DNA of 64,000 nucleotides. Origin: an uncultured Zetaproteobacteria bacterium. Its GTDB lineage: Bacteria; Pseudomonadota; Zetaproteobacteria; Mariprofundales; Mariprofundaceae. The DNA lies in contig CAZQTO010000001.1 of the NCBI GenBank assembly GCA_964596375.1, forward strand, positions 916-64,915, read 5' to 3'. The first letter of the stretch is position 1; every line of letters starts with the position of its first letter. The notes below the pieces were generated by a model, which did not search any database, was not told the DNA's origin, and saw nothing but the letters and a program-made list of their open reading frames with translations. The position numbers and the translations under genes were made by a program. Shown here piece after piece: positions 13,803 to 58,780 of the stretch.

Positions 13803-14486
13803 CTAGAAGTCTTCGATTCTTTGAGCCAGTGCGGAAACGTCGACTTTAACGCGTCCGCGACCGACCAGCGGGATGATAACGCCGTCTTTGGTCAGCGCGC
13901 TGATGGAGCGCGAAATAGTTTCGCGGCTGGTGGAAAGCTGGTCGGCAACAAGTTGATGCGTTGGCAGTTTGATTTCAATGCGCCCGTCCGGCCGCAGGTT
14001 GCCGAACTGTTCACAGTAATCATTAAGGTAGGCATACAGGCGGTGGTTCACGTCCATGGTACTGATATGCCCCAACACCAGATTGGTGCGGCGCAGGCGG
14101 CGGGTAATCTCGGCCAATAATTTACTGGTCAGGCGGGGCATTTCCAGCATCAGGCGGGCGAAATCCCTGCGCCGGATGAAACCGAGTTCAGATTCTTCCA
14201 TGGTGGTGACGGTGGCAGAACGCGGTTCGGTGTCGAGCAGGGCCATTTCACCGAAGAATGAGCCTTTTTCCAGCAGGCAGAGGACGACTTCACGTCCGTC
14301 GGCGGCATATTGCGATATTTTGACCGAGCCACTGAGAATAACGGCCATGGTGTCGCCGGATTCGCCTTCTTGAACGACAATGGTGTTTTTACCGACATGT
14401 TTGCTGGTCACTAGTGTGCTGATAGCCGTGAGCTCTGCGTCGTCGAGTTCGGAAAATAATGGGACTGAGCTGATGATTTCCTTCAT
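13803..14486 (-). CDS. Crp/Fnr-family transcriptional regulator
   Basis: cNMP-binding domain (VPLFSELDDAEL...GSFFGEMALLD...RSATV) plus C-terminal HTH (THQLVADQLSTSRETISRSISAL). 227 aa. Confidence 0.85.
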   Translation of the reverse strand: MKEIISSVPLFSELDDAELTAISTLVTSKHVGKNTIVVQEGESGDTMAVILSGSVKISQYAADGREVVLCLLEKGSFFGEMALLDTEPRSATVTTMEESELGFIRRRDFARLMLEMPRLTSKLLAEITRRLRRTNLVLGHISTMDVNHRLYAYLNDYCEQFGNLRPDGRIEIKLPTHQLVADQLSTSRETISRSISALTKDGVIIPLVGRGRVKVDVSALAQRIEDF

Positions 14487-33088: not shown

Positions 33089-33199
33089 CTCACGTTTTTC
33101 TGGGAACGATGAAGCAGTAAGAAATTGGATGTGTGTTCGACTACGTCATCATTAAGCTCTGCATTCACGGACTGAGCTGTTTTCGGGAGAGAAGAAGAC

Positions 33200-34165: not shown

Positions 34166-34207
34166 GTTTTTCGATAAGCATGATTTGAATGTTGAAGGGG
34201 AAACAAT

Positions 34208-35029
34208 ATGAGTGTTGAAGCCGATGCAGTACGAAGCCATGTGCGTAAAAGTTATGAGCAGGTAGCCGAGGCCAGCAATCAGGGGAGTTGTTGTGGTGAG
34301 GCATCAAGCTGCTGCGGGGTTTCCGACGATGCAGCTATCAATACCCTTATTTCAACGCGTCTCGGCTATAGCGAAGGCGATTTGGCCAAGGTTCCTGAAG
34401 GCGCCGATATGGGCCTGGGTTGCGGTAATCCGCGCGCCATTGCATCGCTATGCGAGGGTGAGGTGGTTGTCGATCTTGGCAGTGGCGGTGGTTTCGATGC
34501 TTTTCTCGCAGCACATGAGGTCGGTTTATCCGGCCATGTGATTGGCGTGGATATGACGCCGACCATGCTGTCCAAGGCGCGGGCCAATGCCGAAAAGGGG
34601 AAGTTTGCCAACGTCGAATTCCGTCTTGGCGAAATCGAGCATTTGCCGCTAGCGGATAACACGGCCGATATCATCATCTCCAATTGCGTGATCAATCTGT
34701 CGCCGCACAAGGAGCAGGTATTCCGTGATGCGTTTCGTGTGCTTAAGCCGGGTGGACGCCTGGCTATTTCCGATGTTGTGGCTACCGCAGAGATGCCTGA
34801 GGAGATGAAGAACGATCCGATGCTGCACGCAGGCTGTATGGCGGGAGCCTCATTGATCGGCGATATCGAAGCAATGATGCAGACAGCCGGTTTCGAGAAG
34901 ATTCGCATTGTACCCAAGGATGATTCACGCGAGTTCATCCGCGATTGGGCTCCGGGGCGTGGTGTGGAGGATTATGTGGTCTCCGCCTGCATCGAGGCCG
35001 TCAAACCGTCCAAATCCTGTTGTTGCTAG
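34208..35029 (+). CDS. arsM: arsenite S-adenosylmethionine methyltransferase
   Basis: SAM motif VVDLGSGGGFD. Conserved Cys contexts GLGCGNP, ISNCVINL and HAGCMAGA. Cys-rich N-terminus (SCCGEASSCCG) and C-terminus (KSCCC). Confidence 0.85.
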   Translation: MSVEADAVRSHVRKSYEQVAEASNQGSCCGEASSCCGVSDDAAINTLISTRLGYSEGDLAKVPEGADMGLGCGNPRAIASLCEGEVVVDLGSGGGFDAFLAAHEVGLSGHVIGVDMTPTMLSKARANAEKGKFANVEFRLGEIEHLPLADNTADIIISNCVINLSPHKEQVFRDAFRVLKPGGRLAISDVVATAEMPEEMKNDPMLHAGCMAGASLIGDIEAMMQTAGFEKIRIVPKDDSREFIRDWAPGRGVEDYVVSACIEAVKPSKSCCC

Positions 35030-47348: not shown

Positions 47349-49751
47349 TTAAAGCCCCAAGTCGAAAAAGTCCTTCTTCTTTTGGGTCGGGCTGGTATCT
47401 GTCGATCTGGTGCGGCTTGTCTCGCGTGGCGCGGTGCCTATTCGGAAAGACTCAAGGAAAGGTCGCTTGGTCGTCGAGCCGGGCAGCAAACCGGTTTCCG
47501 GATCAATAGCCACCCATTCAATACCTTCGGGCGCTGAGAAGTTCAGCTTGGGCCGGTCCATGTGAAACGCCTGCATGGCAGCAAGCCATGTGGGCAGGGC
47601 AGCCCGAGCGCCAGTTTCGATTCTCCCCATGCTGATGGGGATGTCACGACCGGTCCAAACGCCGGTCAGAACCTGTGGTGTGTAGCCCATAAACCATGCA
47701 TCCACCTGATTGTTTGTGGTGCCGGTTTTGCCGGCAGCAGGGCGTCCCAAGGCCAGTGCCCGTCGTCCTGTGCCATGCTGGATGACGCCGTGCATCATAT
47801 TGGTGGCCAGAAAAGCGTTGATCGGGTCGAGTGTTTGTTCTGCAGGCTGCATAGCACTGTTGATGGCCAGAACCGGATCTGCATGGCAGGTCTGGCAGCG
47901 ATGTCCGGCGACTGAACGGTGCAGGGTGTTGCCGTTGCGATCCTGGATCTGCTGGATACTGACCGGGCTCCAGCGACGACCTCCGCTGGCAATCACTGCA
48001 TAGGATTCGGTCAATTCCTTAAGGGTTACTTCGGTGACACCCAAGGCCAGCGCCAACTGGGCGGGGAACTTGCGATTGAACAGGTAGTTGTCATTCAACT
48101 CCTGTTTGAAACGGTTGATGCCAATGTCCTGAAGCAGTTTTATCGAGGCCAGGTTGCGCGAATGTTCCAATGCATCACGCAGGGTAACTGCCCCGGAAAA
48201 TTTATTCTTGTAGTTCTCCGGGCGCCAGAACTCATCATTCTTCAGGTTTTCGAACACAACCGGTGAATCCATGATGATGCTGGCAGGGGTATAACCAGCC
48301 TGCATGGCTGTTTCGTAGAGAAATGGTTTGAAAGCGCTTCCTGGTTGTCGATTGGCACTGTCTACGCGGTCGAAATCGCCCAGATTGAAGTTGAAGCCGC
48401 CAACGCGCGCCAGGACGGTTCCTTTCTGCAGATCGATTGAATAAAGAGCCGATTCGATTGACGGTTGCTGGGTCAGGCGGACACCACCCTTACCATCGCC
48501 CTGTAACCACACCTCATCACCGCCAATCCACTTGCGCGGATGTTCAGGCGGCGTTTCCCCGATTGAATCGAGGGTGGGGGAGGGCTGGCTGGTCTCCTGT
48601 TTTTCCCACTGCCAGACTGGCTTACTTATTTTCCACTGAACCACACCGTCGTTCAGCAATAACTCACCGTCCGGCAGTACTTCCTCGACAAGGGCCGGAA
48701 TAATTTCGTCCTCACGCAGGGGGTCCCCCTCCATATCACGACGATTGTCCGCCCATGTGGCGAGTAGATTAAGCCACTCGTCGGCAGGATGGTTCACCGG
48801 CATGCGGTATAACTGGCGACGTTCAAGTTCCAGAAGGCCTGTTCGTACGGCAGAGACCGCAGCATCTTCTGCCTGCCAGTTGTAGGGGATGGTGATGCTC
48901 AGGCCTTGCCTTCTCAACGTCTGTTTACCAAAACGCTCGATAAGCTGTTGATAGATCATATTCGCGTAGGCATTGGACAATCGGTCTGCTGGTAGAGGAG
49001 CAAGGTTTAACGGTTCCTGTATGGCGGCTGCTACAGCTTCTTCATCAGCGAAACCAGCGTTTTTCATCATGCTCAGCACGAGATTTCGCCTTTGCACCGC
49101 AAGATCGGGACGCAGATGCGGGGCATAATAGCCGGGCGCTTTGGGAAGCCCCGCCAGCATGGCTGATTCTCCCAAGGTCAATTCATCAAGTCGCTTACCA
49201 AAATAGCGCCATGCAGCACTGGCAACGCCATAGGCGCCGCGGCCAAGATAAATCTGATTCAGATAGAGATAGAGAATATCATCCTTGCTGAAGTCATCTT
49301 CAATACGCTGGGCAAGGATAAGTTCACGGATCTTTCGGGTGTAGGAGCGTTCCGAACTGAGCAGGAAGTTTTTGGCAACCTGTTGGGTAATGGTGGAGCC
49401 GCCCTGTACGGTATGCCCTGCTCTTAAATTGGCAAAGGCGGCGGAGAGGATGCGTGCTGGATTTACGCCCGGATGTTGGTAGAAATGCTCATCCTCGGCA
49501 GCCATGAAGGCATTGCGCAGTTGTTGCGGAATGTCTTTAAGCGGGGTAAGAATGCGATGCTCATCGGCATATTCGGCCAGGAGTTCGCCATCCGTACTGT
49601 ATACACGGGTAACAAGAGGTGGCTGATAATCGGCCAAGGTGCTTAACTTTGGCAGATCGCTGGCGAAATATAGATAAACCCCTGTGATACCAATCACGGA
49701 AGCAACAGTGCCAATAAGGATGATTTTGACCATGAGTGTGATAATGCGCAT
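47349..49751 (-). CDS. mrcA: penicillin-binding protein 1A (bifunctional glycosyltransferase/transpeptidase)
   Basis: GT51 motifs EDEHFYQHPGV, GGSTITQQ and RKIRE. Transpeptidase motifs SAFKPF and KTGTTN. 800 aa. Confidence 0.93.
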   Translation of the reverse strand: MRIITLMVKIILIGTVASVIGITGVYLYFASDLPKLSTLADYQPPLVTRVYSTDGELLAEYADEHRILTPLKDIPQQLRNAFMAAEDEHFYQHPGVNPARILSAAFANLRAGHTVQGGSTITQQVAKNFLLSSERSYTRKIRELILAQRIEDDFSKDDILYLYLNQIYLGRGAYGVASAAWRYFGKRLDELTLGESAMLAGLPKAPGYYAPHLRPDLAVQRRNLVLSMMKNAGFADEEAVAAAIQEPLNLAPLPADRLSNAYANMIYQQLIERFGKQTLRRQGLSITIPYNWQAEDAAVSAVRTGLLELERRQLYRMPVNHPADEWLNLLATWADNRRDMEGDPLREDEIIPALVEEVLPDGELLLNDGVVQWKISKPVWQWEKQETSQPSPTLDSIGETPPEHPRKWIGGDEVWLQGDGKGGVRLTQQPSIESALYSIDLQKGTVLARVGGFNFNLGDFDRVDSANRQPGSAFKPFLYETAMQAGYTPASIIMDSPVVFENLKNDEFWRPENYKNKFSGAVTLRDALEHSRNLASIKLLQDIGINRFKQELNDNYLFNRKFPAQLALALGVTEVTLKELTESYAVIASGGRRWSPVSIQQIQDRNGNTLHRSVAGHRCQTCHADPVLAINSAMQPAEQTLDPINAFLATNMMHGVIQHGTGRRALALGRPAAGKTGTTNNQVDAWFMGYTPQVLTGVWTGRDIPISMGRIETGARAALPTWLAAMQAFHMDRPKLNFSAPEGIEWVAIDPETGLLPGSTTKRPFLESFRIGTAPRETSRTRSTDTSPTQKKKDFFDLGL

Positions 49752-50253
49752 CGGCCAAAGCCTAGGACGAAGCTATGCCCCCCGGCAAGGGGGGACTGCG
49801 GCTTGTGGTTCTGCATTCAAGGGAAGCAAGGAACGGGGCTTTACCTTGTTCGAAATGCTTCTCGTTATTACCATCATCGGCATTCTTTCCGCTGTAGCCT
49901 TACCGAATTTCAGCGCATGGCGCGAGCGTCAGGCGGTAAACAGTGCTACCAAATCGCTGCTTTCGCATATGAAGCAGGCAAGGGTGATTGCCATGGCCGA
50001 GAACAGGAGTGTGAAGATCACCTTCGCGGCTAGCAGCTACACCTATGATGCAGACACGGCTGGTACATGTGGCTTGTGCAAGCCCCAAACAGTGGCATTC
50101 AGTAATTTTACCAACAATTTAACGATCACACCGACCACCACGCGAACCTTCAGAAGTCGCGGCACGGTTAATTCCGGTACGATTACACTGGCGGCAGGTG
50201 GAGTTAGTCATGCTCTGGTTTTGAACATTATCGGCAGGGCCTACGAGCAATGA
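49744..50253 (+). CDS. FimT/FimU/GspH-type minor (pseudo)pilin
   Basis: Prepilin motif G|FTLFEMLLVITIIGILSAVALP and the GspH-like block AVNSATKSLLSHMKQARVIAMAENRSVKITF. The only in-frame start upstream of the motif that I see is ATG 49744, giving a leader of about 32 aa. Confidence 0.65.
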   Translation: MRIGQSLGRSYAPRQGGTAACGSAFKGSKERGFTLFEMLLVITIIGILSAVALPNFSAWRERQAVNSATKSLLSHMKQARVIAMAENRSVKITFAASSYTYDADTAGTCGLCKPQTVAFSNFTNNLTITPTTTRTFRSRGTVNSGTITLAAGGVSHALVLNIIGRAYEQ

Positions 50254-50759
50254 GAAAGTCGATGGATAATACCCAGCAGGGCTTCACCCTGATTGAAATC
50301 ATGGTTGTGCTGTTGGTGACGGCAATTGCGCTGCTGGCTCTGGCCACACTGTCGCTTTCCGTGATGGATTCCGGCACCGAGTCGCGCGAGCGACTGAACG
50401 CAGTGCATCTGGCTGAACAGGTGATTGAGGAATGGCAGCGGGATAGCAATGATGAATTGCCGACCATTAATACGAATTGCTCCATGGATGCGTCTTCGGC
50501 ATCCCAGCCGGTAACAAGCGGGACGTCGATTTCGCAGACGTGCAATTTTGCTTCGGGAGGATCATCGATTGATTTTACCGTTAAAGCGGAAGTGTTCTCT
50601 GCCAATGCGCCGCTGCCGGATGGTTTCGGTGGTATTGCTATTGGTGCCATGTCTGGGACAACCTCTTTCCCCAACACACCCATGGTTAAGCTGGTAACGG
50701 TTAGTTGGGACCATAAGGGTGAAGCCAAATCTATTTACCTGACGCACCTGACACGATGA
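50250..50759 (+). CDS. pilV: type IV minor pilin, PilV-like
   Basis: MRKSMDNTQQG|FTLIEIMVVLLVTAIALLALATL. 169 aa. Start overlaps the upstream stop. Confidence 0.65.
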   Translation: MRKSMDNTQQGFTLIEIMVVLLVTAIALLALATLSLSVMDSGTESRERLNAVHLAEQVIEEWQRDSNDELPTINTNCSMDASSASQPVTSGTSISQTCNFASGGSSIDFTVKAEVFSANAPLPDGFGGIAIGAMSGTTSFPNTPMVKLVTVSWDHKGEAKSIYLTHLTR

Positions 50760-51292
50760 ATACATTATCCGCCTTGAGCAAATCGATGCCGCCTGTTCAA
50801 TCCGATTCGCAGGGATTCACCCTTATCGAGCTGATGGTTTCCATGGGTATCGGTTTGATTATTTTGCTTGGCATGACGTTGATGTTTACCAGTAATACCA
50901 AGGTTTCAAACTCGCTGGCCTCGCGCACCGAAAGCCTGGGTGATTTGTATCTGGTCAGTCAGGTCATGCAGAGCGAATTGCGCAATGCTCAGGCTGGCAC
51001 CATTAGCTGGTCTTCCAATGTTCTCAGTTATACTAATCAGGATGCACAACCAGGCTATTTTAAGTACCAACATATCAGCCCTGACCGACTCTATTGGAAG
51101 AGGCCGCCAACAACGACCGATCCGACCCCGACCTATCAGGAGGTGGTTCGCGAGATGGATACGACAGCCGGGATGGCCGTTAGCAGTAGTGCATCTGGAG
51201 TATGGACGGTGACCCTCAAATCCACCTATCAGGATGAGAATCATGATGTTAAAACCCTTGATTTGTCGTTCAAGGCGTGGGCGAGGAACTGA
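50756..51292 (+). CDS. pilW: type IV minor pilin, PilW-like
   Basis: SQG|FTLIELMVSMGIGLIILLGMTLMF. 178 aa. Start overlaps the upstream stop. Confidence 0.65.
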   Translation: MNTLSALSKSMPPVQSDSQGFTLIELMVSMGIGLIILLGMTLMFTSNTKVSNSLASRTESLGDLYLVSQVMQSELRNAQAGTISWSSNVLSYTNQDAQPGYFKYQHISPDRLYWKRPPTTTDPTPTYQEVVREMDTTAGMAVSSSASGVWTVTLKSTYQDENHDVKTLDLSFKAWARN

Positions 51293-51294
51293 GT

Positions 51295-52173
51295 ATGCAT
51301 ATATCTCGCGATAAATCCGAACGCGGTTTTGTGCTGGCCACAGCGCTGATTATGCTTTCCCTGCTTTCCCTGATGGCGATTGCCATGTTCTTCACGGGTC
51401 GCGCCTCTATTCATGTAAGTAGCGGAGCGCAGCACAGCACGGAAGGGCATTATTTCGCCGAGACAGCCGTGAACTACATGATTTGGGCCATGCGCAATGA
51501 TGCCGAGTTTGACAGTTATGATTATGGGATCGGCGGCTTTCTAGATCCGACGCCAAGCCCGACGAATGCAGCGAACGTTGGCGACTGGAGTGAGCTGATG
51601 GATAATCTCTCCGACCCCGGGCCCACGGCAATCAGTGATTCAGCAACTCCACCAGCTCCAGGCCGCGCCGGACAGGTGAAGTATTTCGATAATACACCGT
51701 TGTATGACGTAAGTAATAACCCACTTCGAGCCATTATCTGGCCGCTGCCCACCGACGGCAGCGGGGATCCCGTTTATCCCACCCTATATAATATCAGTGC
51801 AAGCCTGCCGCGTTATATTCGCTTGGATATCGATTCAGCTGGTAATGTGACGCCTTCCATTCCTGCTGTGCCGCATATTAATTTGCCGAAAACAGATGGG
51901 ACCGATGATATTCCAGTCAATGGCGCGATAGCTTGGCTGACTACAGGTAATTCGGACAAGGATTTCGAGGCGGTGGATACAAGTTTATGCACTGTGACAC
52001 CAGTTCCAACTGGTGCGGTTGCCTGCGGTGTCGATAGCCTTAACACTACCCCCAGATGGCTTCTAATTAATGGGGTGCAAGCGAATAAAGACGATCAACA
52101 TGGTGTTGTGGTCTATGCCATCGGTTATGTGGGAGGGCGGCCGAGCAGTATCATCAGGGCGCAGATCAAGTGA
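51295..52173 (+). CDS. pilX: PilX/GspK-like minor pilin
   Basis: Start ATG 51295 (GAGGAA upstream). SERGFVLATALIMLSLLSLMAIAMFF lacks Glu5, as in PilX/GspK-type proteins. 292 aa. Confidence 0.55.
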   Translation: MHISRDKSERGFVLATALIMLSLLSLMAIAMFFTGRASIHVSSGAQHSTEGHYFAETAVNYMIWAMRNDAEFDSYDYGIGGFLDPTPSPTNAANVGDWSELMDNLSDPGPTAISDSATPPAPGRAGQVKYFDNTPLYDVSNNPLRAIIWPLPTDGSGDPVYPTLYNISASLPRYIRLDIDSAGNVTPSIPAVPHINLPKTDGTDDIPVNGAIAWLTTGNSDKDFEAVDTSLCTVTPVPTGAVACGVDSLNTTPRWLLINGVQANKDDQHGVVVYAIGYVGGRPSSIIRAQIK

Positions 52174-52287
52174 TGCATGTTTGTGAGCTTAATCACATAG
52201 GCGAGCAATGGTTGATGCCATCGTTCGTGTATCTTGGCGAAAAAATGATTGCACGATAGTAGATTAATATAACGTAAGGAGGAAAAA

Positions 52288-52974
52288 ATGAAGAACACAA
52301 TTAAACAAATTTCCCTGATGGCTTTCGGAAGCGTCGCATGGTTGGTGTGTGCGGTTGCCTTGCCGATGAATCAGGCAACGGGTACCGATGGCTTGATGGC
52401 CAAGGTGTCGAATCTTGTTATCACTCAGGCTTATGCTGAAGATGACAAATCCAAGTCCGATGATGAAGGAAAATCTGACGACAAGTCCAAGTCCGATGAT
52501 GAGGACAAGTCCAAGGATAAAAGCTCTTCAAGTTCATCGAGCAGTTCTACAACGCTGGTTTGCAAAAGCAAAACCACGGTTGAGTCATGGTTTAGCGACA
52601 GTGAGTCCGAGGTCACGTCTGACGAGGGCAAGTCTAAGGATAGCGAGTCGAAGTCGGACGACGAGTCCAAGTCCGATGATTCAGCCAAATCCGACGATGA
52701 GTCCAAGTCCGATGACGACAAGTCGAAGGACAGCGAGTCCAAGTCCGATGACGACAAGTCGAAGGACAGCGAGTCCAAGTCTTCCGACAGTTCTACAATC
52801 CTCACCTCGCTCGACACCTGCAAAGTCCTCTTGCCTGGCGGCGGCACGGAAGATGGATACTGGGTTCCTGAGAATGTAAGTAATGGCGATGACCTGACTA
52901 CTTACATTGATGGATCAGGCCCTACTACCCCTGACAGTTCGCTGGAGTCCTATCGCGAAATCCGCGGCGAATAA
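52288..52974 (+). CDS. secreted/exported protein P1, unknown family, with K/S/D/E low-complexity core
   Basis: AAGGAGG-N6-ATG. Hydrophobic N-terminus ISLMAFGSVAWLVCAVALP with no prepilin motif. Residues 51-168 are almost entirely K, S, D and E. C-terminal block shared with P2. Confidence 0.6.
   Translation: MKNTIKQISLMAFGSVAWLVCAVALPMNQATGTDGLMAKVSNLVITQAYAEDDKSKSDDEGKSDDKSKSDDEDKSKDKSSSSSSSSSTTLVCKSKTTVESWFSDSESEVTSDEGKSKDSESKSDDESKSDDSAKSDDESKSDDDKSKDSESKSDDDKSKDSESKSSDSSTILTSLDTCKVLLPGGGTEDGYWVPENVSNGDDLTTYIDGSGPTTPDSSLESYREIRGE
52711..52782 (+). repeat. 2 x 36-bp near-perfect tandem repeat inside P1
   Basis: GATGACGACAAGTCGAAGGACAGCGAGTCCAAGTCC occurs twice in tandem (35/36 identical), encoding DDDKSKDSESKS twice. 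Confidence 0.9.
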
Positions 52975-52995
52975 ATACATTCACCGCAATCAGAG

Positions 52996-53026
52996 AGCAC
53001 CCCGGGCAACCGGGGTGCTTTTTTTA
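52996..53026 (+). terminator. rho-independent terminator after P1
   Basis: AGCACCCCGG-GCAA-CCGGGGTGCT followed by TTTTTTT. Confidence 0.85.
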
Positions 53027-53195
53027 TTGCTCTATGCCAAGGCAGAAAAAGTGGAAATTTGGTGTTCGGACGGGTAGTGATGTATTTGTGAGTACGGACA
53101 CATCTTCAATCCGGAAATGGAAGCTAACGTACATCATCATTGCAGGGCTGGGGCGCGAAAGATGGTACCGGTAGTGGCTAAACAAGGAGACGGAA

Positions 53196-53807
53196 ATGAA
53201 CAAGACAAAAAAACACATTTTTTTCCTATTTTTCGGCAGCGCGGTATGGGCGCTTTGCTTTGCTGTACACCCTGGGAGTCAGCTGCAAGGCTTCGATAGC
53301 TTGCCGGGCATACAGATGAATATCGGTCAAGCTTATGCAGTAGACTTCAGCAATGATGAGCTGGTTTGCGTAGACAGGGAATCGGTGACAACCACGGTGG
53401 GATTTGACGTGAGCAATGACGATAAAATGTCTACAACCAGCACAGTGCTTTGCCATGTTTCGCATGGTAAAGGAGGCAAAGATCATCAAACGCTGACCTT
53501 GCCGGACGTCGCAGTGTCCAAGCACATGGATAAGCATTCGGACGATCATCTGGGCTCATGCGGCGGTACCGAGGCACCTGACCCGACCACATCAGTGGAC
53601 ACAGCGTGCATCGATTCCTTGCCGGGGTGTACGGCTCTGGGTGGAACGGCAACGAATGGTATCTGGGTTCCCGAGAGCGCGGTTAATGCCGACGGCACAG
53701 TGAATGTAACCATGCTTGATGATTACTTCACACAAACATGCTCAAGCGGCGCCAGCGGTATCCCGGACAGCATGCATAGATCCTACCGCGACATACATGG
53801 CAAATAA
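53196..53807 (+). CDS. secreted/exported protein P2, paralogue of P1 without the repeat tract
   Basis: AAGGAG-N6-ATG. N-terminus IFFLFFGSAVWALCFAV. Shares the IGQAYA, LVC and C-terminal CIDSLPG...NGIWVPESAVNADG...PDS..SYRDIHGK blocks with P1. Confidence 0.6.
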   Translation: MNKTKKHIFFLFFGSAVWALCFAVHPGSQLQGFDSLPGIQMNIGQAYAVDFSNDELVCVDRESVTTTVGFDVSNDDKMSTTSTVLCHVSHGKGGKDHQTLTLPDVAVSKHMDKHSDDHLGSCGGTEAPDPTTSVDTACIDSLPGCTALGGTATNGIWVPESAVNADGTVNVTMLDDYFTQTCSSGASGIPDSMHRSYRDIHGK

Positions 53808-53829
53808 TTTGCTTCCCCATCTGCTGAAG

Positions 53830-53860
53830 GGCACCCCGAAGAACCGGGGTGCCTTCTTCT
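53830..53860 (+). terminator. rho-independent terminator after P2 (same stem core as the P1 terminator)
   Basis: GGCACCCCG-AAGAAC-CGGGGTGCC followed by TTCTTCT. Confidence 0.7.
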
Positions 53861-54003: not shown

Positions 54004-55074
54004 TTGAATCTGTTTAAACGCAAGTCGGATGTGTTGATTGCCGTGGATATCAGTTCCGCGGCGGTTAAGCTTGTCGAACTTGGTAAGGTGCGAGGTGGTT
54101 TTGAGTTGAAATCGATGGCAATCGTGCCATTGCCGCGCGATGTGATTGTCGAAAATGAGATTATTGACTCCATGACCGTCACGCAGGCGCTTGAGGATGC
54201 TGTGCGCATTGCCTCTCCGTCTTCCCTCGATGTCATTTTCGCCGTATCAGGTAACGCATTGATCATCAAAACAGTAACCATGCCGCTGATGACCGAACTT
54301 GAGCTTGAAGCATCCATCGAATTTGAGGCAGACCAGCATATTCCATACGATATGGAGGATGTGTACCTCGACTTCCAGATTTTGGGTGTGACTGACGATG
54401 GTGCGGAAATGGAAGTGGTGCTTGTTGCCTGCAAGCGCGATGTGATTGAGGCCTATCAGCAGGTGATTCAGGAAGCCGGGATGACAGTCAAATGTGTTGA
54501 TTGTGCAGTTTTTGCTTTGGAGAATGCTACTGAACTTCTGATGGGCAGTGTTCCTGACCTGGACGGAGATGAGGAGGCGGATGTAAGCGTCCATGCGCTG
54601 GCCAATATCGGCGCCAATTTCACCAATATCAATATTTTGCATGGTGGCCAGATGGCCTTTGTGCGTGATCAGTTCTTCGGTGGAAATCAGTTGACCCAGG
54701 AGATTCAGGAAGCGCATGGGATTAGTTTTCAGGCTGCAGAGCAAATGAAATTGGATAATTTCTCTGGTATTGATGATGTCGCCACTGAGAATTATTTCAC
54801 AGCTTTGGCCGATGAACTTGTGCGTACGCTTGATTTTTATGCTGTTCGACATGCGGATTTCCCGGTAGAGAGTCTTTTTCTCAGTGGCGGCGGGGCTCTC
54901 GTTCCCGGCACTGCTGAACAGGTTGAACAGCGCCTGGGTATTGATACGAAGGTATTGAATCCTTTCTCAGTGATTAAATCCTCGCCCAAAAAGTTTGATG
55001 CAGACTATCTGAATAGAATCGGTCCGATGATGATGGTTCCTGTCGGGCTGGCATTGCGGAGCTTTGATAAATGA
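54004..55074 (+). CDS. pilM: type IV pilus assembly protein PilM
   Basis: TTG start after GAGGTGG. (M)NLFKRKSDVLIAVDISSAAVKLVELGK and an actin-like ATPase fold. 356 aa. Confidence 0.9.
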   Translation: MNLFKRKSDVLIAVDISSAAVKLVELGKVRGGFELKSMAIVPLPRDVIVENEIIDSMTVTQALEDAVRIASPSSLDVIFAVSGNALIIKTVTMPLMTELELEASIEFEADQHIPYDMEDVYLDFQILGVTDDGAEMEVVLVACKRDVIEAYQQVIQEAGMTVKCVDCAVFALENATELLMGSVPDLDGDEEADVSVHALANIGANFTNINILHGGQMAFVRDQFFGGNQLTQEIQEAHGISFQAAEQMKLDNFSGIDDVATENYFTALADELVRTLDFYAVRHADFPVESLFLSGGGALVPGTAEQVEQRLGIDTKVLNPFSVIKSSPKKFDADYLNRIGPMMMVPVGLALRSFDK

Positions 55075-55658
55075 TTCGTATTAACCTTTTGCCCTATCGC
55101 GATGCACGCCGTCAAGGCCAGATTGTGCAATATATTCTGGTAGCCTTGGCTGCGCTTGCTCTAACGATCGTGCTTGTCCTTTCGTCCTATTCATGGTCAA
55201 CCCTGCAGTTGAGCGATGCTGATGACCGCTTAAAGAACGTCCATGGAGAGAATCAGGCTCTAAAGATAAAGATTGGCGAACTGAGTAAGTTTAAAGAGGT
55301 TCAGGCCGAGGTTCAGAAGAAACTTGATCTTGTAGACACCCTGCAGCGCGGCCGGTTTCGTAGCCTTGAGTCCATACAGGGTCTCTCCGTGGCTATTCCG
55401 GAAAACGTATGGCTGACCGATGTGAAGGATGCTGGAGGTACCATCAGTATCAGTGGCTTGGGAGAGAGCAATCGTGCTGTGGCTGCATTTATGCGCGCCT
55501 TGGAGAATCAGCCGGTATTTTCCGGAGTGAATCTTAAATTAATCAAACGAGAGAGTAGGGGGAGCGTTGTCCTGCGCAGTTTTTCCCTGACCATGAATCG
55601 GATTGATCCACCGCTTGATACGAAGTCAGGCAAGCCTTCCGGAGGTGGTGCGCTATGA
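55071..55658 (+). CDS. pilN: type IV pilus assembly protein PilN
   Basis: MIRINLLPYRDARRQ followed by one TM helix. Start overlaps the pilM stop. Confidence 0.85.
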   Translation: MIRINLLPYRDARRQGQIVQYILVALAALALTIVLVLSSYSWSTLQLSDADDRLKNVHGENQALKIKIGELSKFKEVQAEVQKKLDLVDTLQRGRFRSLESIQGLSVAIPENVWLTDVKDAGGTISISGLGESNRAVAAFMRALENQPVFSGVNLKLIKRESRGSVVLRSFSLTMNRIDPPLDTKSGKPSGGGAL

Positions 55659-56281
55659 AAGTAAACCTCCCGCAGCTTGATGTCTTGCGCCCGATTTTGG
55701 GTGTTCCGGTTTGGCAATGTGTTACAGGTCTTGTGTTGGTCGTGATGCTCTTGGTGGGCGGATATGTCTTTGCTGTCTGGATGCCCCTTGAGGATAAGAT
55801 TGAGGGTGTCGAAAAATCCATCCTGAGTGAACAAAGAATCCTGCAGCGTAACCAACAGACCGCACGGGATTTGCCGCGTAAAAAGCTTCAGTTCGAAGAA
55901 ATGAAGAAGCAACTCGAACTGGCCCGTAGCATGCTGCCCGAGAAATCGCAGATTCCCGATCTTCTTGATGGCGTCAGCCGCGCAGGCAAACATGCAGGTC
56001 TGGAGTTCAGCGCGTTCCTGCCATTGGCTGAAGTAAAGAAAGAACTTCATGCGGAGGTTCCTGTGTCGCTGAGTATGACCGGAACCTTTCGTCAAATGGC
56101 TTTGTTTCTCAGTACCGTGGGTGAAATGCAGCGTATCGTGGAAATAAAGGGCCTGAGCTTTTCTGAAGGTGAGGGCGAGGAATTAAAGATGAATGGGCAG
56201 GCAATTACTTATCGCCTGCTGGACGACCAGGAAATAAAACAGGCTCAACAGAAACCAGCTGGTGGCGGCAGGAAGCGCTAG
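55655..56281 (+). CDS. pilO: type IV pilus assembly protein PilO
   Basis: Position and size (208 aa), N-terminal TM helix, coiled-coil, and the IPDLLDGVSRAGKHAGLEFSAFLP block. Confidence 0.8.
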   Translation: MKVNLPQLDVLRPILGVPVWQCVTGLVLVVMLLVGGYVFAVWMPLEDKIEGVEKSILSEQRILQRNQQTARDLPRKKLQFEEMKKQLELARSMLPEKSQIPDLLDGVSRAGKHAGLEFSAFLPLAEVKKELHAEVPVSLSMTGTFRQMALFLSTVGEMQRIVEIKGLSFSEGEGEELKMNGQAITYRLLDDQEIKQAQQKPAGGGRKR

Positions 56282-56296
56282 GATGCTGGGAGGTGA

Positions 56297-58780
56297 ATGA
56301 TGGATATCAAGATCAATTATAATCGATTAGGCGCCATCCGGCTTACGGCATTGCTTTTTGCCATGATGTTATTGTGGCCGGCAAATTCGCAGGCCGCTCA
56401 GATCACGGCGATGACGCTTGAGAAGTCTCCTGCCGGAGATGTCATAAGTATCCAATCAGATGGCGAACTGGATTATCAGTCCTTTGATTTGTCCGCGCCA
56501 CCTCGTCTTGTACTTACCTTTCCCAACAGCGTTTTCAGCAAAAAAGTGAAATCCATCAGCCATAACGAAGCAGGCGTAAAAAGCATTTCCCCTTCAGCTT
56601 CCAAGGTTGGCGCACGGCTTGATATCAGCCTGAGCAAGGCGCTGAGCTATAAGGTGGAGCAGCAGGGGGATAAACTTCTCCTGCGTTTTTCCCCTGTTTC
56701 CGGGGCGAAAATGAAAGTGGTGCAGGATGTCGCTGTATTGAAGGATATCGAGATCAGTGATCAGGGTGCGTTGACCGAGGTGGTGGTCCGCGGGGAACAT
56801 ATGAATGCCAGTCATGATGCCTTTGTGACCAATCAGGGGCACACACTGATTATGGATTTTTGGGGCGCCACATCGCTACTTCCCAAAGAGCATTATGCAG
56901 TAGCTACTCAAAATGTGCAGAGCGTGACGGTCGGTGAAGCCAAGGGGCGGGTCCGGCTTGTGGTCAATCTGGTTCCCGGTGTAAGCGACAAACATCAAAT
57001 TGATGCGACTGACGGACAGATGCTGGTACGTTTTGGCAGCGTAACACCAAAACGAAAAGCCGCTGAGGTTCAGGTCGAGAATGTGCTTTTCAAACCAAAC
57101 GACCGGATTTCACAACTGGTGATTCGTACCAACGTCAACAATCCGATTATCAATTTGCATGAGGAAAAGGGCGCAGCCATTCTCGATATAAACAAGGCGG
57201 ATCTGGCCAAGGGACAGGAGCGTTCACAGGATATCAGAGAATTTCCGGGCCCGCTCAGCCAGATTGATGCATACAAGGCTGGCGATAAGGTCCGCATTGT
57301 CGCCAGGCTGCGCGACAAGGTGGAAATCTCCAGCTTCCAGCAGGGCAATGTACTAACCGTAACCTTTGTGCCCAAGGACCTTGCATCCGCCAAGCGTGGC
57401 GCGACGCAGGGGGCTGCGCTCGAATATACCGGACAAAAAGTGAGCTTCGATTATCAGGGTATCGATATTCGCAATGCGCTGCGTCTGATTGCCGAGATGA
57501 GCGATATGAACATCATCATGGGCGAAGATGTGCAAGGTAAGCTGACCATGCGTCTGGAAAACGTACCTTGGGATCAGGCGCTGGATATCATCCTTGATTC
57601 TCAGAGTTTGGGTAAAGTAGTGCAGGGAAACGTGATGCGTATTGCACCCATATCTGTATTGGCTAAGGCCCAGCAGGAAAAGCTAGAGGCCAATCAGAAT
57701 GCCTCAGAGCTGGCTCCACTGCTGACAGAATTTATTTCACTGAATTTTGCCAAGGCCAGTGATGTGAAAGCCATGCTGGAGACAGTGCAAGAGGCGGATA
57801 CTGCGTCAAGCACCACAGGCACGGCAGCTCCGACGGCATCCCTGAGTTCAGCGGCAAGCAGTGGGATGCTTTCCGCACGCGGCAGCTTCGTAGTTGATGA
57901 GAGAACCAACACGCTAATTGTTAAAGACACGCAGGACTCGATTAACAGCATCAAGCGCCTGATTGCACGGGTCGACAGGCCTGTTAAACAGGTGATGATC
58001 GAGGCACGCATTGTTGAAGCCACCGATAATTTCACACGCGACCTGGGTGTTCGCTGGGGTGGACAGGTGGCAGGCAAGGGAGGCCGGGTGTCTACCCAGC
58101 TATCAAATTCTGCGGCAGGCGGCGTTGTTGGTGGTATTGGTGGTAATGCTCCACCCGGTGGATTCCTCGTCGATTTGCCTGCTGCTGTCGGTGCCGGAGC
58201 AGGTGGTCAAATCGGATTTGCAGTGGGCGCTCTTAATAATGCATTCAACCTGAATCTGGAGCTTTCTGCCGCAGAAGCAGACGACAAGATCAAGATTATC
58301 TCCAATCCGCGCGTGGTGACTACCAATATGAAAAAAGCCACCATCAATCAGGGTACTCAAATCCCATTCACATCCACGAGCATTAACGGCAGCACTACTG
58401 AGTTCAAGACAGCCAATTTAGGTCTTGAGGTAACACCACAGATTACTGCCGACAACCGCCTTATTTTGGTGGTTAAAGCCACCAAGGACTCCCCTGGCGC
58501 GGCAGCAGTAGCGGGTGGTCAACCTACGATCGACACCAAACAGGTTGAGACGGAAATCTTTATGAACAATGGTGAGACCATTGTTATCGGTGGCATTTAC
58601 ACCCGTAACAACACCAATAACACGGCGGGTGTTCCATTCTTTTCAAAGATTCCGATATTGGGCTGGTTATTCAAAACGAATACCAAGACTGATAATAAGA
58701 CAGAATTACTGATATTTATCACACCCACGATTCTTGATACTGCCCCCCATGGGAGCGGAGAGGTGGCTCAGGTTCGTTAA
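56297..58780 (+). CDS. pilQ: type IV pilus secretin PilQ with extended N-terminus (three AMIN-like modules)
   Basis: Signal peptide, three repeats of AMIN-like architecture (each ending ...LVLTF / ...LIMDF / ...AILDI contexts), N0/N1 domains and the secretin core NPRVVTTNMKKATINQGTQIPF...VPFFSKIPILGWLFK. Confidence 0.9.
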   Translation: MMDIKINYNRLGAIRLTALLFAMMLLWPANSQAAQITAMTLEKSPAGDVISIQSDGELDYQSFDLSAPPRLVLTFPNSVFSKKVKSISHNEAGVKSISPSASKVGARLDISLSKALSYKVEQQGDKLLLRFSPVSGAKMKVVQDVAVLKDIEISDQGALTEVVVRGEHMNASHDAFVTNQGHTLIMDFWGATSLLPKEHYAVATQNVQSVTVGEAKGRVRLVVNLVPGVSDKHQIDATDGQMLVRFGSVTPKRKAAEVQVENVLFKPNDRISQLVIRTNVNNPIINLHEEKGAAILDINKADLAKGQERSQDIREFPGPLSQIDAYKAGDKVRIVARLRDKVEISSFQQGNVLTVTFVPKDLASAKRGATQGAALEYTGQKVSFDYQGIDIRNALRLIAEMSDMNIIMGEDVQGKLTMRLENVPWDQALDIILDSQSLGKVVQGNVMRIAPISVLAKAQQEKLEANQNASELAPLLTEFISLNFAKASDVKAMLETVQEADTASSTTGTAAPTASLSSAASSGMLSARGSFVVDERTNTLIVKDTQDSINSIKRLIARVDRPVKQVMIEARIVEATDNFTRDLGVRWGGQVAGKGGRVSTQLSNSAAGGVVGGIGGNAPPGGFLVDLPAAVGAGAGGQIGFAVGALNNAFNLNLELSAAEADDKIKIISNPRVVTTNMKKATINQGTQIPFTSTSINGSTTEFKTANLGLEVTPQITADNRLILVVKATKDSPGAAAVAGGQPTIDTKQVETEIFMNNGETIVIGGIYTRNNTNNTAGVPFFSKIPILGWLFKTNTKTDNKTELLIFITPTILDTAPHGSGEVAQVR

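What the first reader, a model, noticed from the sequence alone, without database searches (positions are those of the whole stretch)
52288..53860. Two paralogous secreted proteins of unknown family sit where PilY1/PilE would be in a type IV minor-pilin operon
Four prepilin-type genes (FimT/U-, PilV-, PilW- and PilX-like) lie upstream. Well-studied loci such as Pseudomonas fimU-pilVWXY1Y2E continue with pilY1 (>1000 aa) and pilE. Neither gene is present between 52.2 and 54.0 kb. Two ORFs of 228 and 203 aa follow instead. Each has its own strong RBS (AAGGAGG or AAGGAG, 6 nt before ATG). Each also has its own rho-independent terminator built on the same stem (GCACCCCG...CGGGGTGC), so gene plus terminator was duplicated as a unit. 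Both N-termini are hydrophobic and Sec-like (FGSVAWLVCAVA / FGSAVWALCFAV) and lack the G|F-x-x-x-E prepilin motif. Shared blocks are I(T/G)QAYA, LVC, and a C-terminal module (T/A)C..LPG....G(Y/I)WVPE..VN.D....PDS..SYR(E/D)I(R/H)G(E/K)-stop. I recognise no described family. Their position between the minor pilins and pilMNOQ suggests a pilus-tip, pilus-associated or pilus-secreted function.
Basis: partly seen in the sequence, partly recalled or inferred. Interest (0 to 1): 0.74.

Follow-up and report, generated by a model that had tools for sequence, protein, structure and literature searches.

The report
Paired CRP-controlled secreted proteins beside pilus genes
Two small exported proteins of an undescribed family, seen so far only in iron-oxidising Zetaproteobacteria, always come as a pair and each carries its own cAMP-receptor-type switch; they often sit next to pilus genes but are not stand-ins for the pilus tip protein.

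Summary
P1 (52288-52974) and P2 (53196-53807) are paralogues (BLASTP E=4e-16). Each has its own Shine-Dalgarno site and its own terminator on a shared stem. They follow a FimT/PilV/PilW/PilX-like operon and precede pilMNOQ. No Pfam, NCBIfam, PDB or Foldseek match exists.

New findings:
- The window is zetaproteobacterial. The tandem pair is conserved in every lineage sampled.
- In one large branch the pair lies in a TatD...MgtE/PPK2 housekeeping neighbourhood with no pilus genes nearby. Pilus linkage is therefore frequent, not obligatory.
- Nearly every family gene, wherever it sits, has a TGTGA-N6-TCACA box about 100-120 bp upstream. The box is centred 32 bp from a -10-like hexamer, which is class II CRP geometry.
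- P2 contains a roughly 40-residue His-rich, Cys-bracketed module. The same module recurs in more than 1000 protein clusters; the five large ones scanned also carry adhesin-type domains (SprB, Ig-like, cadherin-like). Window P1 has lost it.
- The proteins lack prepilin motifs and any PilY1 domain.

Best reading: these are cAMP/CRP-type-induced, Sec-exported, paired extracellular proteins deployed with type IV pili during surface colonisation. They are not PilY1/PilE substitutes. Function is still inferred. This is a new family and the interest is moderate.

The parts
13803..14486 (-). CRP/FNR-family regulator, a candidate reader of the TGTGA-N6-TCACA boxes
   Evidence: It carries cNMP_binding plus HTH_Crp_2. 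The best NCBIfam hit is CRP at 2e-27, below the cut-off. The recognition helix SRETISR has the R-E-x-x-x-R pattern of E. coli CRP (the comparison is from my own knowledge). Assigning it to these boxes is an inference.
49683..49698 (.). Weak CRP-like palindrome TGTGATACCAATCACG upstream of the minor-pilin operon, inside the first codons of divergent ponA
   Evidence: Searches found it. Its PWM score is 7.8 bits, third best in 64 kb but far below the P1 and P2 boxes. The core GTGA-N6-TCAC is kept in L015 although the encoded PBP1a residues changed. A GATGAT -10-like hexamer lies 31 bp from the box centre.
49744..50253 (+). FimT/GspH-like minor pilin (start uncertain; cleavage motif G|FTLFE)
   Evidence: Hits GspH at 3e-06, N_methyl, and ComGD/GspH NCBIfam models. 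Orthologues are called at 163-169 aa in three loci and at 132 aa, from an internal start, in L008.
50250..50759 (+). PilV-like minor pilin
   Evidence: N_methyl 3.2e-08; TIGR02523 PilV 3.2e-09.
50756..51292 (+). PilW/GspJ-like minor pilin
   Evidence: N_methyl 3.7e-08; ComGF and GspJ-type hits.
51277..52173 (+). PilX/GspK-like minor pilin
   Evidence: Weak GspK hit at 0.0049. The 39%-identical relative in L019 hits PilX_N at 6.5e-10.
52182..52197 (.). CRP-type box of P1, TGTGAGCTTAATCACA (perfect half-sites)
   Evidence: PWM score 24.2 bits, the best in the window. Conserved in all P1 orthologues.
52219..52224 (+). -10-like hexamer CATCGT of the P1 promoter (A at position 2, T at position 6)
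   Evidence: In the anchored alignment of 27 boxes, A is at +39 and T at +43/44 in 20 of 27. The hexamer centre lies 32 bp from the box centre, which puts the box at -41.5. This is an inferred promoter.
52276..52282 (+). Shine-Dalgarno AAGGAGG of P1, 5 nt before the ATG
52288..52974 (+). P1: signal peptide, acidic Ser/Asp/Lys low-complexity region, LVC module A, module C ending SYREIRGE; module B absent
   Evidence: The mature protein is 27% Ser and 19% Asp, with pI 4.2. The P1-type proteins of L002, L004 and L008 and clusters P0009, P0010 and P0013 carry module B, which this copy lacks.
52699..52781 (+). Perfect 36-nt tandem repeat (2.3 copies) inside P1, variable in copy number
   Evidence: TRF score 166 at 100% identity. 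The otherwise identical contig L001 lacks one unit.
52992..53023 (+). Intrinsic terminator of P1
   Evidence: 14-bp stem followed by a T run. The stem motif is unique to the two terminators. It is conserved, with compensatory changes, in orthologous loci.
53087..53102 (.). CRP-type box of P2, TGTGAGTACGGACACA (1 mismatch)
   Evidence: PWM score 22.4 bits. Conserved in P2 orthologues.
53125..53130 (+). -10-like hexamer TAACGT of the P2 promoter
   Evidence: This is an inferred promoter.
53184..53189 (+). Shine-Dalgarno AAGGAG of P2, 6 nt before the ATG
53196..53807 (+). P2: signal peptide, LVC module A, module B, module C ending SYRDIHGK
   Evidence: The mature protein has 6 Cys and 8 His, with pI 4.6. 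The AF2 model of the mature part has pLDDT 67.8 and shows small alpha/beta modules.
53442..53561 (+). Module B of P2 (residues about 83-122, TVLCHVSHGKGGKDHQTLTLPDVAVSKHMDKHSDDHLGSC)
   Evidence: Profile positions about 118-180 match 1125 cluster representatives, many of them multi-copy large proteins. Sequences of P0029, P0042 and P0045 show the same C-H...T-I/L-x-V...A-V-x-x-H...D-x-x-G-x-C pattern.
53828..53855 (+). Intrinsic terminator of P2
53932..53961 (+). Sigma-70-like promoter candidate for pilM (TTGACC-18-TATGTT)
   Evidence: It is a consensus match only. No CRP box lies here.
54004..58780 (+). pilM (54004-55074), pilN (55071-55658), pilO (55655-56281), pilQ (56297-58780); no pilP
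   Evidence: PilM_2 hit at 3.4e-80. PilN, PilO and AMIN+Secretin are called in syntenic loci. TIGR02515 PilQ hit at 9e-146.

Best explanation
P1 and P2 are the two members of a conserved tandem pair of small Sec-exported modular proteins. The pair has so far been seen only on zetaproteobacterial-type contigs.

The architecture is:
- a long signal peptide ending in A-x-A;
- a hypervariable low-complexity linker;
- an 'LVC' module A;
- a His-rich, Cys-bracketed module B, shared with large proteins that also carry adhesin-type domains and lost from window P1;
- a module C whose last residues, SYR(E/D)IxG(Q/E/K)-COOH, are nearly invariant.

Each gene is a self-contained, activator-dependent transcription unit: a TGTGA-N6-TCACA box centred about 41.5 bp upstream of the predicted start, a -10-like hexamer with no conserved -35-like element, a strong Shine-Dalgarno site and a strong intrinsic terminator.

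Proposed mechanism: a cyclic-nucleotide-bound CRP-family regulator switches both genes on, probably together with the minor-pilin operon. The proteins cross the inner membrane by Sec, are cut by signal peptidase I, and form disulfides. They then act outside the cytoplasm as a two-component (probably heteromeric) surface, matrix or adhesion factor that accompanies type IV pili during surface colonisation. They are not pilins and are not PilY1/PilE substitutes.

Shown: the gene structure, the paralogy, the conserved pairing, the box and its geometry, the module B relationship, and the variable genomic location.
Inferred: export, CRP dependence, heteromer formation, extracellular adhesion-type role.
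For: - Paralogy and family conservation, with invariant Cys and C-terminal tail, hold across 26 or more members.
- The tandem pair is present in every lineage with enough sequence: the window clade, L011, L017, L022, L024/25, L029 and L019/20. In L049 the pair is split only by a PhoU/PHO4 insertion.
- A box with at most 1 mismatch lies 98-185 bp upstream of 27 of the 28 non-redundant family genes whose upstream DNA is held. Roughly 250 kb of distinct sequence was scanned, and almost no other hits occur in it. In the window the two boxes score 24.2 and 22.4 bits, against 7.8 for the next site.
- The anchored alignment shows a -10-like A/T pattern 32 bp from the box centre, which is class II geometry.
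- A CRP-like regulator is encoded in the window. A class III nucleotide cyclase gene lies directly upstream of the pair in L017.
- In the five large module-B proteins scanned, module B co-occurs with SprB, Big_7/Big_9 or cadherin-like domains; the T9SS-tail match was below Pfam's stretch threshold.
- Linkers are hypervariable and one repeat varies in copy number.
- Precedents exist. cAMP-Vfr directly activates fimU-pilVWXY1Y2E (PMC8787478). SyCRP1 boxes precede both a 178-aa Sec-secreted surface protein and the minor-pilin operon in Synechocystis (bioRxiv 10.1101/130278).
Against: - There is no experimental datum.
- Localisation beyond the Sec signal is unknown. There is no sorting signal, and the proteins could remain periplasmic.
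- The box upstream of the minor-pilin operon is weak and lies in ponA coding sequence, so co-regulation with pili is only suggestive.
- A whole branch keeps the pair away from pilus genes.
- Structure models are only moderately confident and match nothing.
- Module B, the only link to adhesins, is dispensable in P1-type proteins.
- Other CRP/FNR-family regulators could read the box.
Confidence: 0.4

Rival explanations
1. The proteins are pilus-dependent cargo or pilus-tip partners, a type IVa analogue of TcpF/CofJ. After Sec export they would dock on the PilV/W/X-type minor-pilin complex, perhaps through the invariant disordered C-terminal tail. They would then either be displayed at the tip or be pushed out through PilQ.
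For: - The pair lies directly after pilX and/or directly before pilM in several arrangements: the window clade, L011, L014, L015 and L019/20.
- The C-terminal tail is conserved yet predicted disordered (pLDDT <50), as expected for a short docking motif.
- A CRP-like core is also found before the minor-pilin operon.
- No pilY1 is seen in the window.
Against: - The pair is unlinked from pilus genes in a large branch (L017, L022, L024/25, L049).
- There is no homology to TcpF, CofJ, PilY1 or any pilin.
- Each gene is insulated by its own terminator, so it is not part of a pilus operon.
- A PilY1 gene elsewhere in the genome cannot be excluded.
Confidence: 0.2
2. The proteins handle metal or mineral independently of pili. 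They would be acidic or His-rich secreted proteins that bind Fe or other cations, or that modulate Fe(III) oxyhydroxide nucleation around iron-oxidising Zetaproteobacteria. On this view the adjacency to pil genes is inherited synteny.
For: - The only two taxonomically named loci are Zetaproteobacteria MAGs.
- Mature P1 is 27% Ser, 19% Asp, 13% Lys, with pI 4.2. Acidic repeats are expanded independently in several lineages.
- Module B is rich in conserved His and Asp between two Cys.
- In the non-pilus branch the neighbours include ferritin, MgtE and PHO4/PhoU.
Against: - Acidic repeats are absent from many members, which have short Ser/Thr/Gly linkers instead.
- Module B is lost in many P1-type proteins.
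- There is no recognised metal-binding family hit.
- The published stalk gene-cluster study does not mention pili (PMC8250860).
Confidence: 0.15
3. The proteins are periplasmic accessories that replace the missing PilP, linking PilN/PilO to the PilQ secretin.
For: - No pilP lies between pilO and pilQ in the window or in any syntenic locus.
- The family has PilP-like size, a signal peptide and a disordered linker followed by a folded C-terminal part.
- Some members have a Cys a few residues after the A-x-A site, resembling a lipobox.
Against: - There is no PilP (PF04351) or other Pfam hit in 26 members.
- The N-terminal Cys is absent from P1 and P2, several members have poor lipoboxes, and the Cys lies beyond residue 40.
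- The pair is unlinked from pilMNOQ in a large branch.
- Linkers are hypervariable and module B is of the kind found in adhesin-domain proteins, both atypical for a machine component.
- The genes are separate CRP-dependent units rather than part of pilMNOQ.
Confidence: 0.05

Closest known systems
Synechocystis slr1667 (CccS/'AdhA') together with the SyCRP1-controlled minor-pilin operon pilA9-12
   Same: Both are small (about 180 aa) Sec-signal proteins. A canonical TGTGA-N6-TCACA box precedes the gene, and the same regulator also controls a minor-pilin operon. The Synechocystis protein affects pilus-dependent behaviour (bioRxiv 10.1101/130278).
   Different: No sequence relationship was detected (no shared Pfam family). 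slr1667 is paired with a chaperone-usher-type chaperone, not with a paralogue. It comes from a different phylum. Here nothing has been shown experimentally.
TcpF (Vibrio cholerae) and CofJ (ETEC), proteins secreted by type IVb pili
   Same: They are Sec-exported soluble proteins encoded with pilus genes. Their export depends on a flexible terminal peptide that docks on the tip minor pilin (my own knowledge). This is a possible functional analogy for the conserved disordered C-terminal tail.
   Different: There is no homology. Those systems are type IVb and use an N-terminal docking peptide. They are single genes inside the pilus operon. Here there are two paralogues, each an insulated CRP-type unit, not always near pilus genes.
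PilY1/PilC tip adhesins and PilE of the fimU-pilVWXY1Y2E operon
   Same: The position after pilX in the window clade matches. The Pseudomonas operon is also activated by a CRP homologue, Vfr (PMC8787478).
   Different: P1 and P2 are 5-fold smaller. They have no PilY1/PilC beta-propeller, no vWA domain and no prepilin motif. They are separate transcription units.
The unnamed 'CH-x-PPGN ... AHLAHGD-x-x-G-x-C' repeat (module B), found in large proteins that also carry adhesin-type domains
   Same: P2, and most P1-type proteins elsewhere, carry one copy with the same conserved Cys/His/Asp pattern.
   Different: The large proteins scanned carry up to 15 copies next to SprB, Ig-like or cadherin-like domains. 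The module itself is in neither Pfam, NCBIfam nor the PDB, so it gives context but no function.

Membership tests
Type IV (pre)pilins / minor pilins (PilE-like) | N-terminal class III signal: short leader ending in Gly, then F/M-x-x-x-E and a hydrophobic helix (Pfam N_methyl, TIGR02532) | tested here: not met
   P1 and P2 give no N_methyl or TIGR02532 hit, whereas the three upstream pilins hit it. The family alignment shows no G|F-x-x-x-E. It shows a Sec-type n/h region followed by A-x-A instead.
PilY1/PilC tip adhesins | Large protein (about 1000 aa or more) with a C-terminal PilY1/PilC beta-propeller domain, often an N-terminal vWA domain | tested here: not met
   P1 and P2 are 228 and 203 aa. 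No Pfam or NCBIfam hit appears at E<=1, and none in 26 relatives. Foldseek finds nothing.
PilY1/PilC tip adhesins | A pilY1 gene is absent from the genome, so that a replacement is needed | not testable with these tools
   Only 64 kb are available, and within it there is no ORF of 1000 aa or more. The rest of the genome could not be searched.
PilP (secretin-alignment lipoprotein) | Lipobox Cys plus a C-terminal PilP/HR domain (PF04351) | tested here: not met
   There is no Pfam hit. P1 and P2 have no Cys after the A-x-A site. Relatives show an inconsistent lipobox.
TcpF/CofJ-type pilus-secreted proteins | Sequence or fold similarity to TcpF or CofJ | tested here: not met
   No Pfam hit, no PDB sequence hit, and no Foldseek hit with E<1 (the models are of moderate or low confidence).
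TcpF/CofJ-type pilus-secreted proteins | Export dependent on the pilus machine and on a minor pilin | not testable with these tools
   This needs secretome analysis of pilus mutants.
CRP/Vfr-type regulon member (class II promoter) | TGTGA-N6-TCACA operator, conserved across orthologues, centred near -41.5 relative to the start | tested here: met
   Boxes lie at 52182 (0 mismatches) and 53087 (1 mismatch). A box precedes 27 of 28 family genes in all loci. The -10-like hexamer lies 32 bp from the box centre. The transcription start itself was not measured.
CRP/Vfr-type regulon member (class II promoter) | Binding and activation by a cyclic-nucleotide-bound CRP-family protein | not testable with these tools
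   A candidate regulator exists at 13803-14486. EMSA or genetics is needed.
Module B repeat family (unnamed) | About 40-45 residues: C-H-x-P/S-x-G ... T-[IL]-x-[VL] ... A-V-x-x-H ... (H)-G-D-x-x-G-x-C | tested here: met
   P2 residues about 83-122 fit the pattern. The profile search gives 1125 hits at E<=1e-3, most of the top 150 listed matching mainly this stretch. The pattern is visible in P0029, P0042 and P0045. Pairwise BLASTP of P2 against P0029 gives only E=0.009. Window P1 does not meet this feature because the module is deleted.

The most novel reading that the evidence does not exclude
The pair could be a type IVa-pilus-dependent exported effector or tip partner. In this reading, two Sec-exported paralogues form a heterodimer and dock through their invariant C-terminal SYR(E/D)IxGQ tail on the PilV/W/X minor-pilin complex. 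They are then presented or released through PilQ under cAMP/CRP control. In iron-oxidising Zetaproteobacteria their acidic or His-rich parts would bind Fe(III) mineral or surfaces. That would be a TcpF/CofJ-like principle in a type IVa system, tied to mineral attachment.
Probability: 0.15. Interest if true: 0.75.

Novelty: new variant of a known kind. Interest (0 to 1): 0.5.

Why it matters
Zetaproteobacteria are hard to manipulate genetically, and most of their lineage-specific secreted proteins have no known role.

This analysis turns two hypothetical ORFs into a defined, testable unit. It is a conserved pair with a diagnostic operator, a predicted class II CRP promoter, and a modular architecture that includes a widespread, unnamed module found in large proteins with adhesin-type domains. 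It also corrects an attractive but unsupported idea, that the pair replaces PilY1/PilE.

If the CRP-type box works as predicted, it gives a handle on a cyclic-nucleotide regulon in obligate iron oxidisers. That regulon may connect pili with surface or mineral attachment. Module B on its own, with more than 1000 clusters and no Pfam entry, merits a family definition.

Tried and rejected
- Family searches. Pfam and NCBIfam scans of P1, P2 and 26 relatives found nothing. A PDB sequence search with the family profile found nothing.
- Structure. Two AlphaFold models gave pLDDT 55 and 68. Foldseek against the PDB found no match with E<1, so there is no fold assignment.
- RNA. Rfam on 49.4-54.3 kb gave only sub-threshold hits on the P1 terminator.
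- Promoters. I looked by eye for a sigma-54 promoter upstream of P1 and P2. The GG/GC spacing is wrong, so I rejected it. The sigma-70 consensus scan found nothing upstream of P1 or P2.
- Lipoprotein reading. Some relatives have A-G-S/A-C, but the Cys is missing in P1 and P2, several lipoboxes are poor, and the Cys lies beyond residue 40. I judged this unlikely.
- Collection scans. The third word-indexed protein search was swamped by low-complexity words and recovered few distant members.
- Literature. Searches for the sequence motifs and for Zetaproteobacteria pili found no description of the family.
- Taxonomy. No taxon could be assigned to most metagenomic loci. Only two loci are named Zetaproteobacteria MAGs.
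Full report
**1. What is in the sequence**

The two ORFs exist as described. P1 is 52288-52974 (228 aa) and P2 is 53196-53807 (203 aa), both on the + strand. They are paralogues: BLASTP gives E=4e-16 and 29% identity. They share an N-terminal hydrophobic stretch, QAYA, an LVC block and a C-terminal block ending SYR(E/D)I(R/H)G(E/K).

Each gene has a strong Shine-Dalgarno site. For P1 it is AAGGAGG at 52276-52282, 5 nt from the ATG. For P2 it is AAGGAG at 53184-53189, 6 nt from the ATG. Each gene also has an intrinsic terminator (52992-53023 and 53828-53855). The stem GCACCCCG...CGGGGTGC occurs nowhere else in the 64 kb, against 0.01 expected.

Upstream lie four prepilin-type genes: FimT/GspH-, PilV-, PilW/GspJ- and PilX/GspK-like. 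The last was assigned through its relative in L019, which hits PilX_N. These genes are divergent from ponA. Downstream lie pilM, pilN, pilO, pilQ and aroB. The window holds no ORF of 1000 aa or more, and the large ORFs scanned between 13.8 and 41.2 kb have ordinary housekeeping assignments. No pilY1 is visible in the window. The rest of the genome cannot be examined.

**2. Where it comes from and how wide the family is**

Word-indexed searches of 5.8 billion proteins found only 8 relatives with P2 as query and 25 with a P1+P2 profile. All are metagenomic and unnamed. The genome scan placed the locus in two MAGs labelled Zetaproteobacteria. PonA, PilM and PilQ of the window are 83-92% identical to one of them, and the window has 54% G+C.

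An exhaustive HMMER search of 1.84 billion cluster representatives gave 1125 hits. Most of the top 150 listed match mainly profile positions about 118-180. This stretch, here called module B, runs K-V-T-I-C-H-x-P-P-G-N...H-T-I-x-V...S-A-V-x-A-H-L-A-H-G-D-x-L-G-x-C. It is about 40-45 residues long, rich in His and bracketed by two Cys. It occurs in up to 15 copies in proteins of up to 3300 aa. The five large module-B proteins scanned also contain SprB repeats, Big_7/Big_9 or cadherin-like domains. It is in neither Pfam, NCBIfam nor the PDB.

True full-length relatives number a few dozen. They have a signal peptide, an 'LVC' module A, module B and module C with the invariant tail. None of 26 members hits any Pfam family at E<=0.01.

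Window P1 has lost module B. It is present in the P1-type proteins of L002, L004 and L008 and in clusters P0009, P0010, P0013 and P0020.

**3. Protein features**

The family alignment shows a positively charged n-region, a hydrophobic region, and then a conserved A-x-A (QAYA|ED in P1, QAYA|VD in P2). This is the likely signal peptidase I site (an inference, since no predictor was available). There is no G|F-x-x-x-E prepilin motif and no consistent lipobox.

Mature P1 is 27% Ser, 19% Asp and 13% Lys, with pI 4.2. It contains a perfect 36-nt tandem repeat. An otherwise identical contig (L001) lacks one repeat unit. Mature P2 has 6 Cys and 8 His. Linkers differ strongly between relatives, being acidic KSDDE-type, SESNS-type or short Ser/Thr/Gly.

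AlphaFold gave pLDDT 55 for full-length P2 with 14 sequences. It gave 67.8 for the mature part with 19 sequences. The better model shows small alpha/beta modules and a disordered yet conserved C-terminal tail. Foldseek against the PDB found nothing with E<1.

**4. Genomic context across relatives**

The two-gene arrangement is conserved everywhere enough sequence is available. This covers the window clade (L002/L016, L004, L008, L012, L015), L011, L017, L022, L024/25, L029 and L019/20. In L049 the two genes are separated only by an inserted PhoU/PHO4 unit.

A neighbour-joining tree of the C-terminal 70 residues separates P1-type and P2-type orthologues within the window clade, so the duplication is old. 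In L017 and L022 the two 3' flanks are identical over about 30 nt, which points to gene conversion. The shared terminator stem in the window is therefore not evidence of a recent duplication of gene plus terminator.

The location varies:
- (a) minor pilins, then the pair, then pilMNOQ (window clade);
- (b) DUF2064, then the pair, then pilM, with no minor pilins (L011);
- (c) minor pilins, then a single family gene, then a spermidine-synthase-like/TPR membrane protein, then pilM (L014);
- (d) a PilX_N protein, then the pair, then the same spermidine-synthase-like gene (L019/20);
- (e) ClpA/S, HAD, TatD (plus a class III cyclase gene in L017), then the pair, then PPK2, MgtE or EarP. No pilMNOQ lies within the 7-10 kb held on the sides available (L017, L022, L024/25, L049, L047).

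Pilus linkage is thus recurrent but not obligatory.

**5. The regulatory signature (new)**

Alignment of the upstream regions showed a conserved TGTGA-N6-TCACA palindrome before both genes. In the window it is perfect at 52182 and has one mismatch at 53087.

Across all loci, a box with at most 1 mismatch lies 98-185 bp (mostly 105-118 bp) upstream of 27 of the 28 non-redundant family genes examined. This includes every gene in the non-pilus neighbourhoods and both halves of the split pair in L049. These loci contain almost no other hits. A matrix built from the boxes scores the two window sites at 24.2 and 22.4 bits, and the next best site in 64 kb at 7.8 bits.

Anchoring 27 promoters on the box reveals a -10-like hexamer, with A at +39 and T at +43/44 in 20 of 27. 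Its centre is 32 bp from the box centre, which places the box at about -41.5. This is the geometry of class II CRP-dependent promoters (established knowledge), and there is no conserved -35-like element. A further conserved motif, C(T)TGGCGGA, lies at about the predicted start and is unexplained.

The 7.8-bit site (49683-49698) lies upstream of the minor-pilin operon, inside the first codons of ponA. Its GTGA-N6-TCAC core is retained in L015 even though the encoded residues changed. A GATGAT hexamer lies at the same spacing. This suggests, but does not prove, co-regulation with the minor pilins.

The window encodes a CRP/FNR-family protein whose recognition helix SRETISR carries the R-E-x-x-x-R pattern of CRP.

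There are two precedents. cAMP-Vfr directly activates fimU-pilVWXY1Y2E in Pseudomonas (PMC8787478). In Synechocystis, SyCRP1 boxes precede both a 178-aa Sec-secreted surface protein and the minor-pilin operon (bioRxiv 10.1101/130278).

**6. Interpretation**

The best-supported account has three parts:
- P1 and P2 are a conserved pair of Sec-exported, disulfide-containing modular proteins.
- Each gene is a self-contained, activator-dependent unit of a CRP-type regulon.
- The proteins act outside the cytoplasm, probably as a heteromer. Their role is a surface, matrix or adhesion factor deployed with type IV pili when the cell colonises a surface.

Overall confidence is 0.4. Gene reality and export are highly likely. 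CRP-type control is likely. The adhesion role is inferred from the company module B keeps, the hypervariable linkers, and the partial linkage to pili.

Three rivals remain:
- a TcpF/CofJ-like pilus-dependent cargo or tip partner (0.2);
- a pilus-independent metal or mineral-binding role suited to iron oxidisers (0.15);
- a PilP substitute (0.05), raised because no pilP lies between pilO and pilQ in any locus.

Membership in the pilin, PilY1, PilP and TcpF/CofJ families was tested and not met.

**7. Novelty and score**

The family and module B are undescribed in Pfam, NCBIfam, the PDB and the searchable literature.

The kind of thing is known from one cyanobacterium: a CRP-controlled small secreted protein that accompanies pilus genes. 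This is therefore a new variant of a known kind rather than a new category.

Interest is moderate (0.5). The conserved pair-plus-operator unit, and its possible tie between cyclic-nucleotide signalling, pili and attachment in iron oxidisers, make a concrete and testable lead.

Noticed in passing
window 56281-56297 (between pilO and pilQ); same in L002, L004, L007, L011, L012: No pilP gene lies between pilO and pilQ in this window or in any syntenic locus. PilQ (827 aa, with AMIN domain) follows PilO after 15-36 nt.
   Followed up: partly
window 53442-53561 (P2 residues ~83-122); P0026-P0167: Module B (C-H-x-PPGN ... AHLAHGD-x-x-G-x-C) is a widespread unnamed repeat. It gave 1125 cluster representatives at E<=1e-3, with up to 15 copies per protein. 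The five large module-B proteins scanned also carry SprB, Big_7/Big_9 or cadherin-like domains. It is absent from Pfam, NCBIfam and the PDB.
   Followed up: partly
window 52699-52781; L001 1-432: A perfect 36-nt tandem repeat in P1 differs by one unit between the window and an otherwise 100% identical metagenome contig. This is either strain-level length variation or assembly collapse.
   Followed up: yes
about 50-60 nt downstream of the start of each CRP-type box (e.g. window 52231-52242 TATCTTGGCGAA; L017, L022, L025, L029, L023, L049): A second conserved motif, C(T)TGGCGGA(T), sits at about the predicted transcription start of most family genes. Its role is unknown. It could be an initiation region, a second regulator site or an RNA-level GGA site.
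   Followed up: no
L017 10598-10640 vs 11348-11390; L022 8601-8630 vs 9351-9380: Within a genome, the 3' flanks and terminators of the two paralogues are nearly identical over about 30 nt, although the proteins are only about 50-57% identical. This suggests gene conversion at the 3' ends.
   Followed up: partly
L014 7650-10559 (-); L019 2737-3957 (+); L020 1612-3600 (+): A large membrane protein with a spermidine-synthase-like domain (plus TPR in L014) neighbours the family genes in two arrangements and in opposite orientations. The two copies are 58% identical. It has no match in the window.
   Followed up: partly
window 49683-49751; L002, L008, L012, L014, L015: The ponA and fimT coding regions start back to back and may overlap by a few bases. 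The fimT promoter must therefore lie inside ponA codons. The GTGA-N6-TCAC palindrome there survives amino-acid replacement in L015.
   Followed up: partly
P0011, P0012, P0016, P0017, P0018 (P1-type relatives): Some P1-type proteins repeat internally the segment that follows the hydrophobic part of the signal peptide (DSLMAKV-SLVI-PAYA-EDD). The repeat includes the A-x-A motif, so this segment may be a mature-protein module or a second processing site.
   Followed up: no
L017 9062-9775; L024 3106-4335; L049 12892-13353: Cyclic-nucleotide signalling genes lie close to the pair in the non-pilus neighbourhoods. They are a class III nucleotide cyclase directly upstream (L017), a GGDEF protein (L024) and a PilZ-domain protein (L049).
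   Followed up: no
window 32450-35029: There is a cluster of a thermostable-hemolysin-family protein, a radical SAM/DUF3641 protein and a SAM methyltransferase. It is unrelated to the finding.
   Followed up: no
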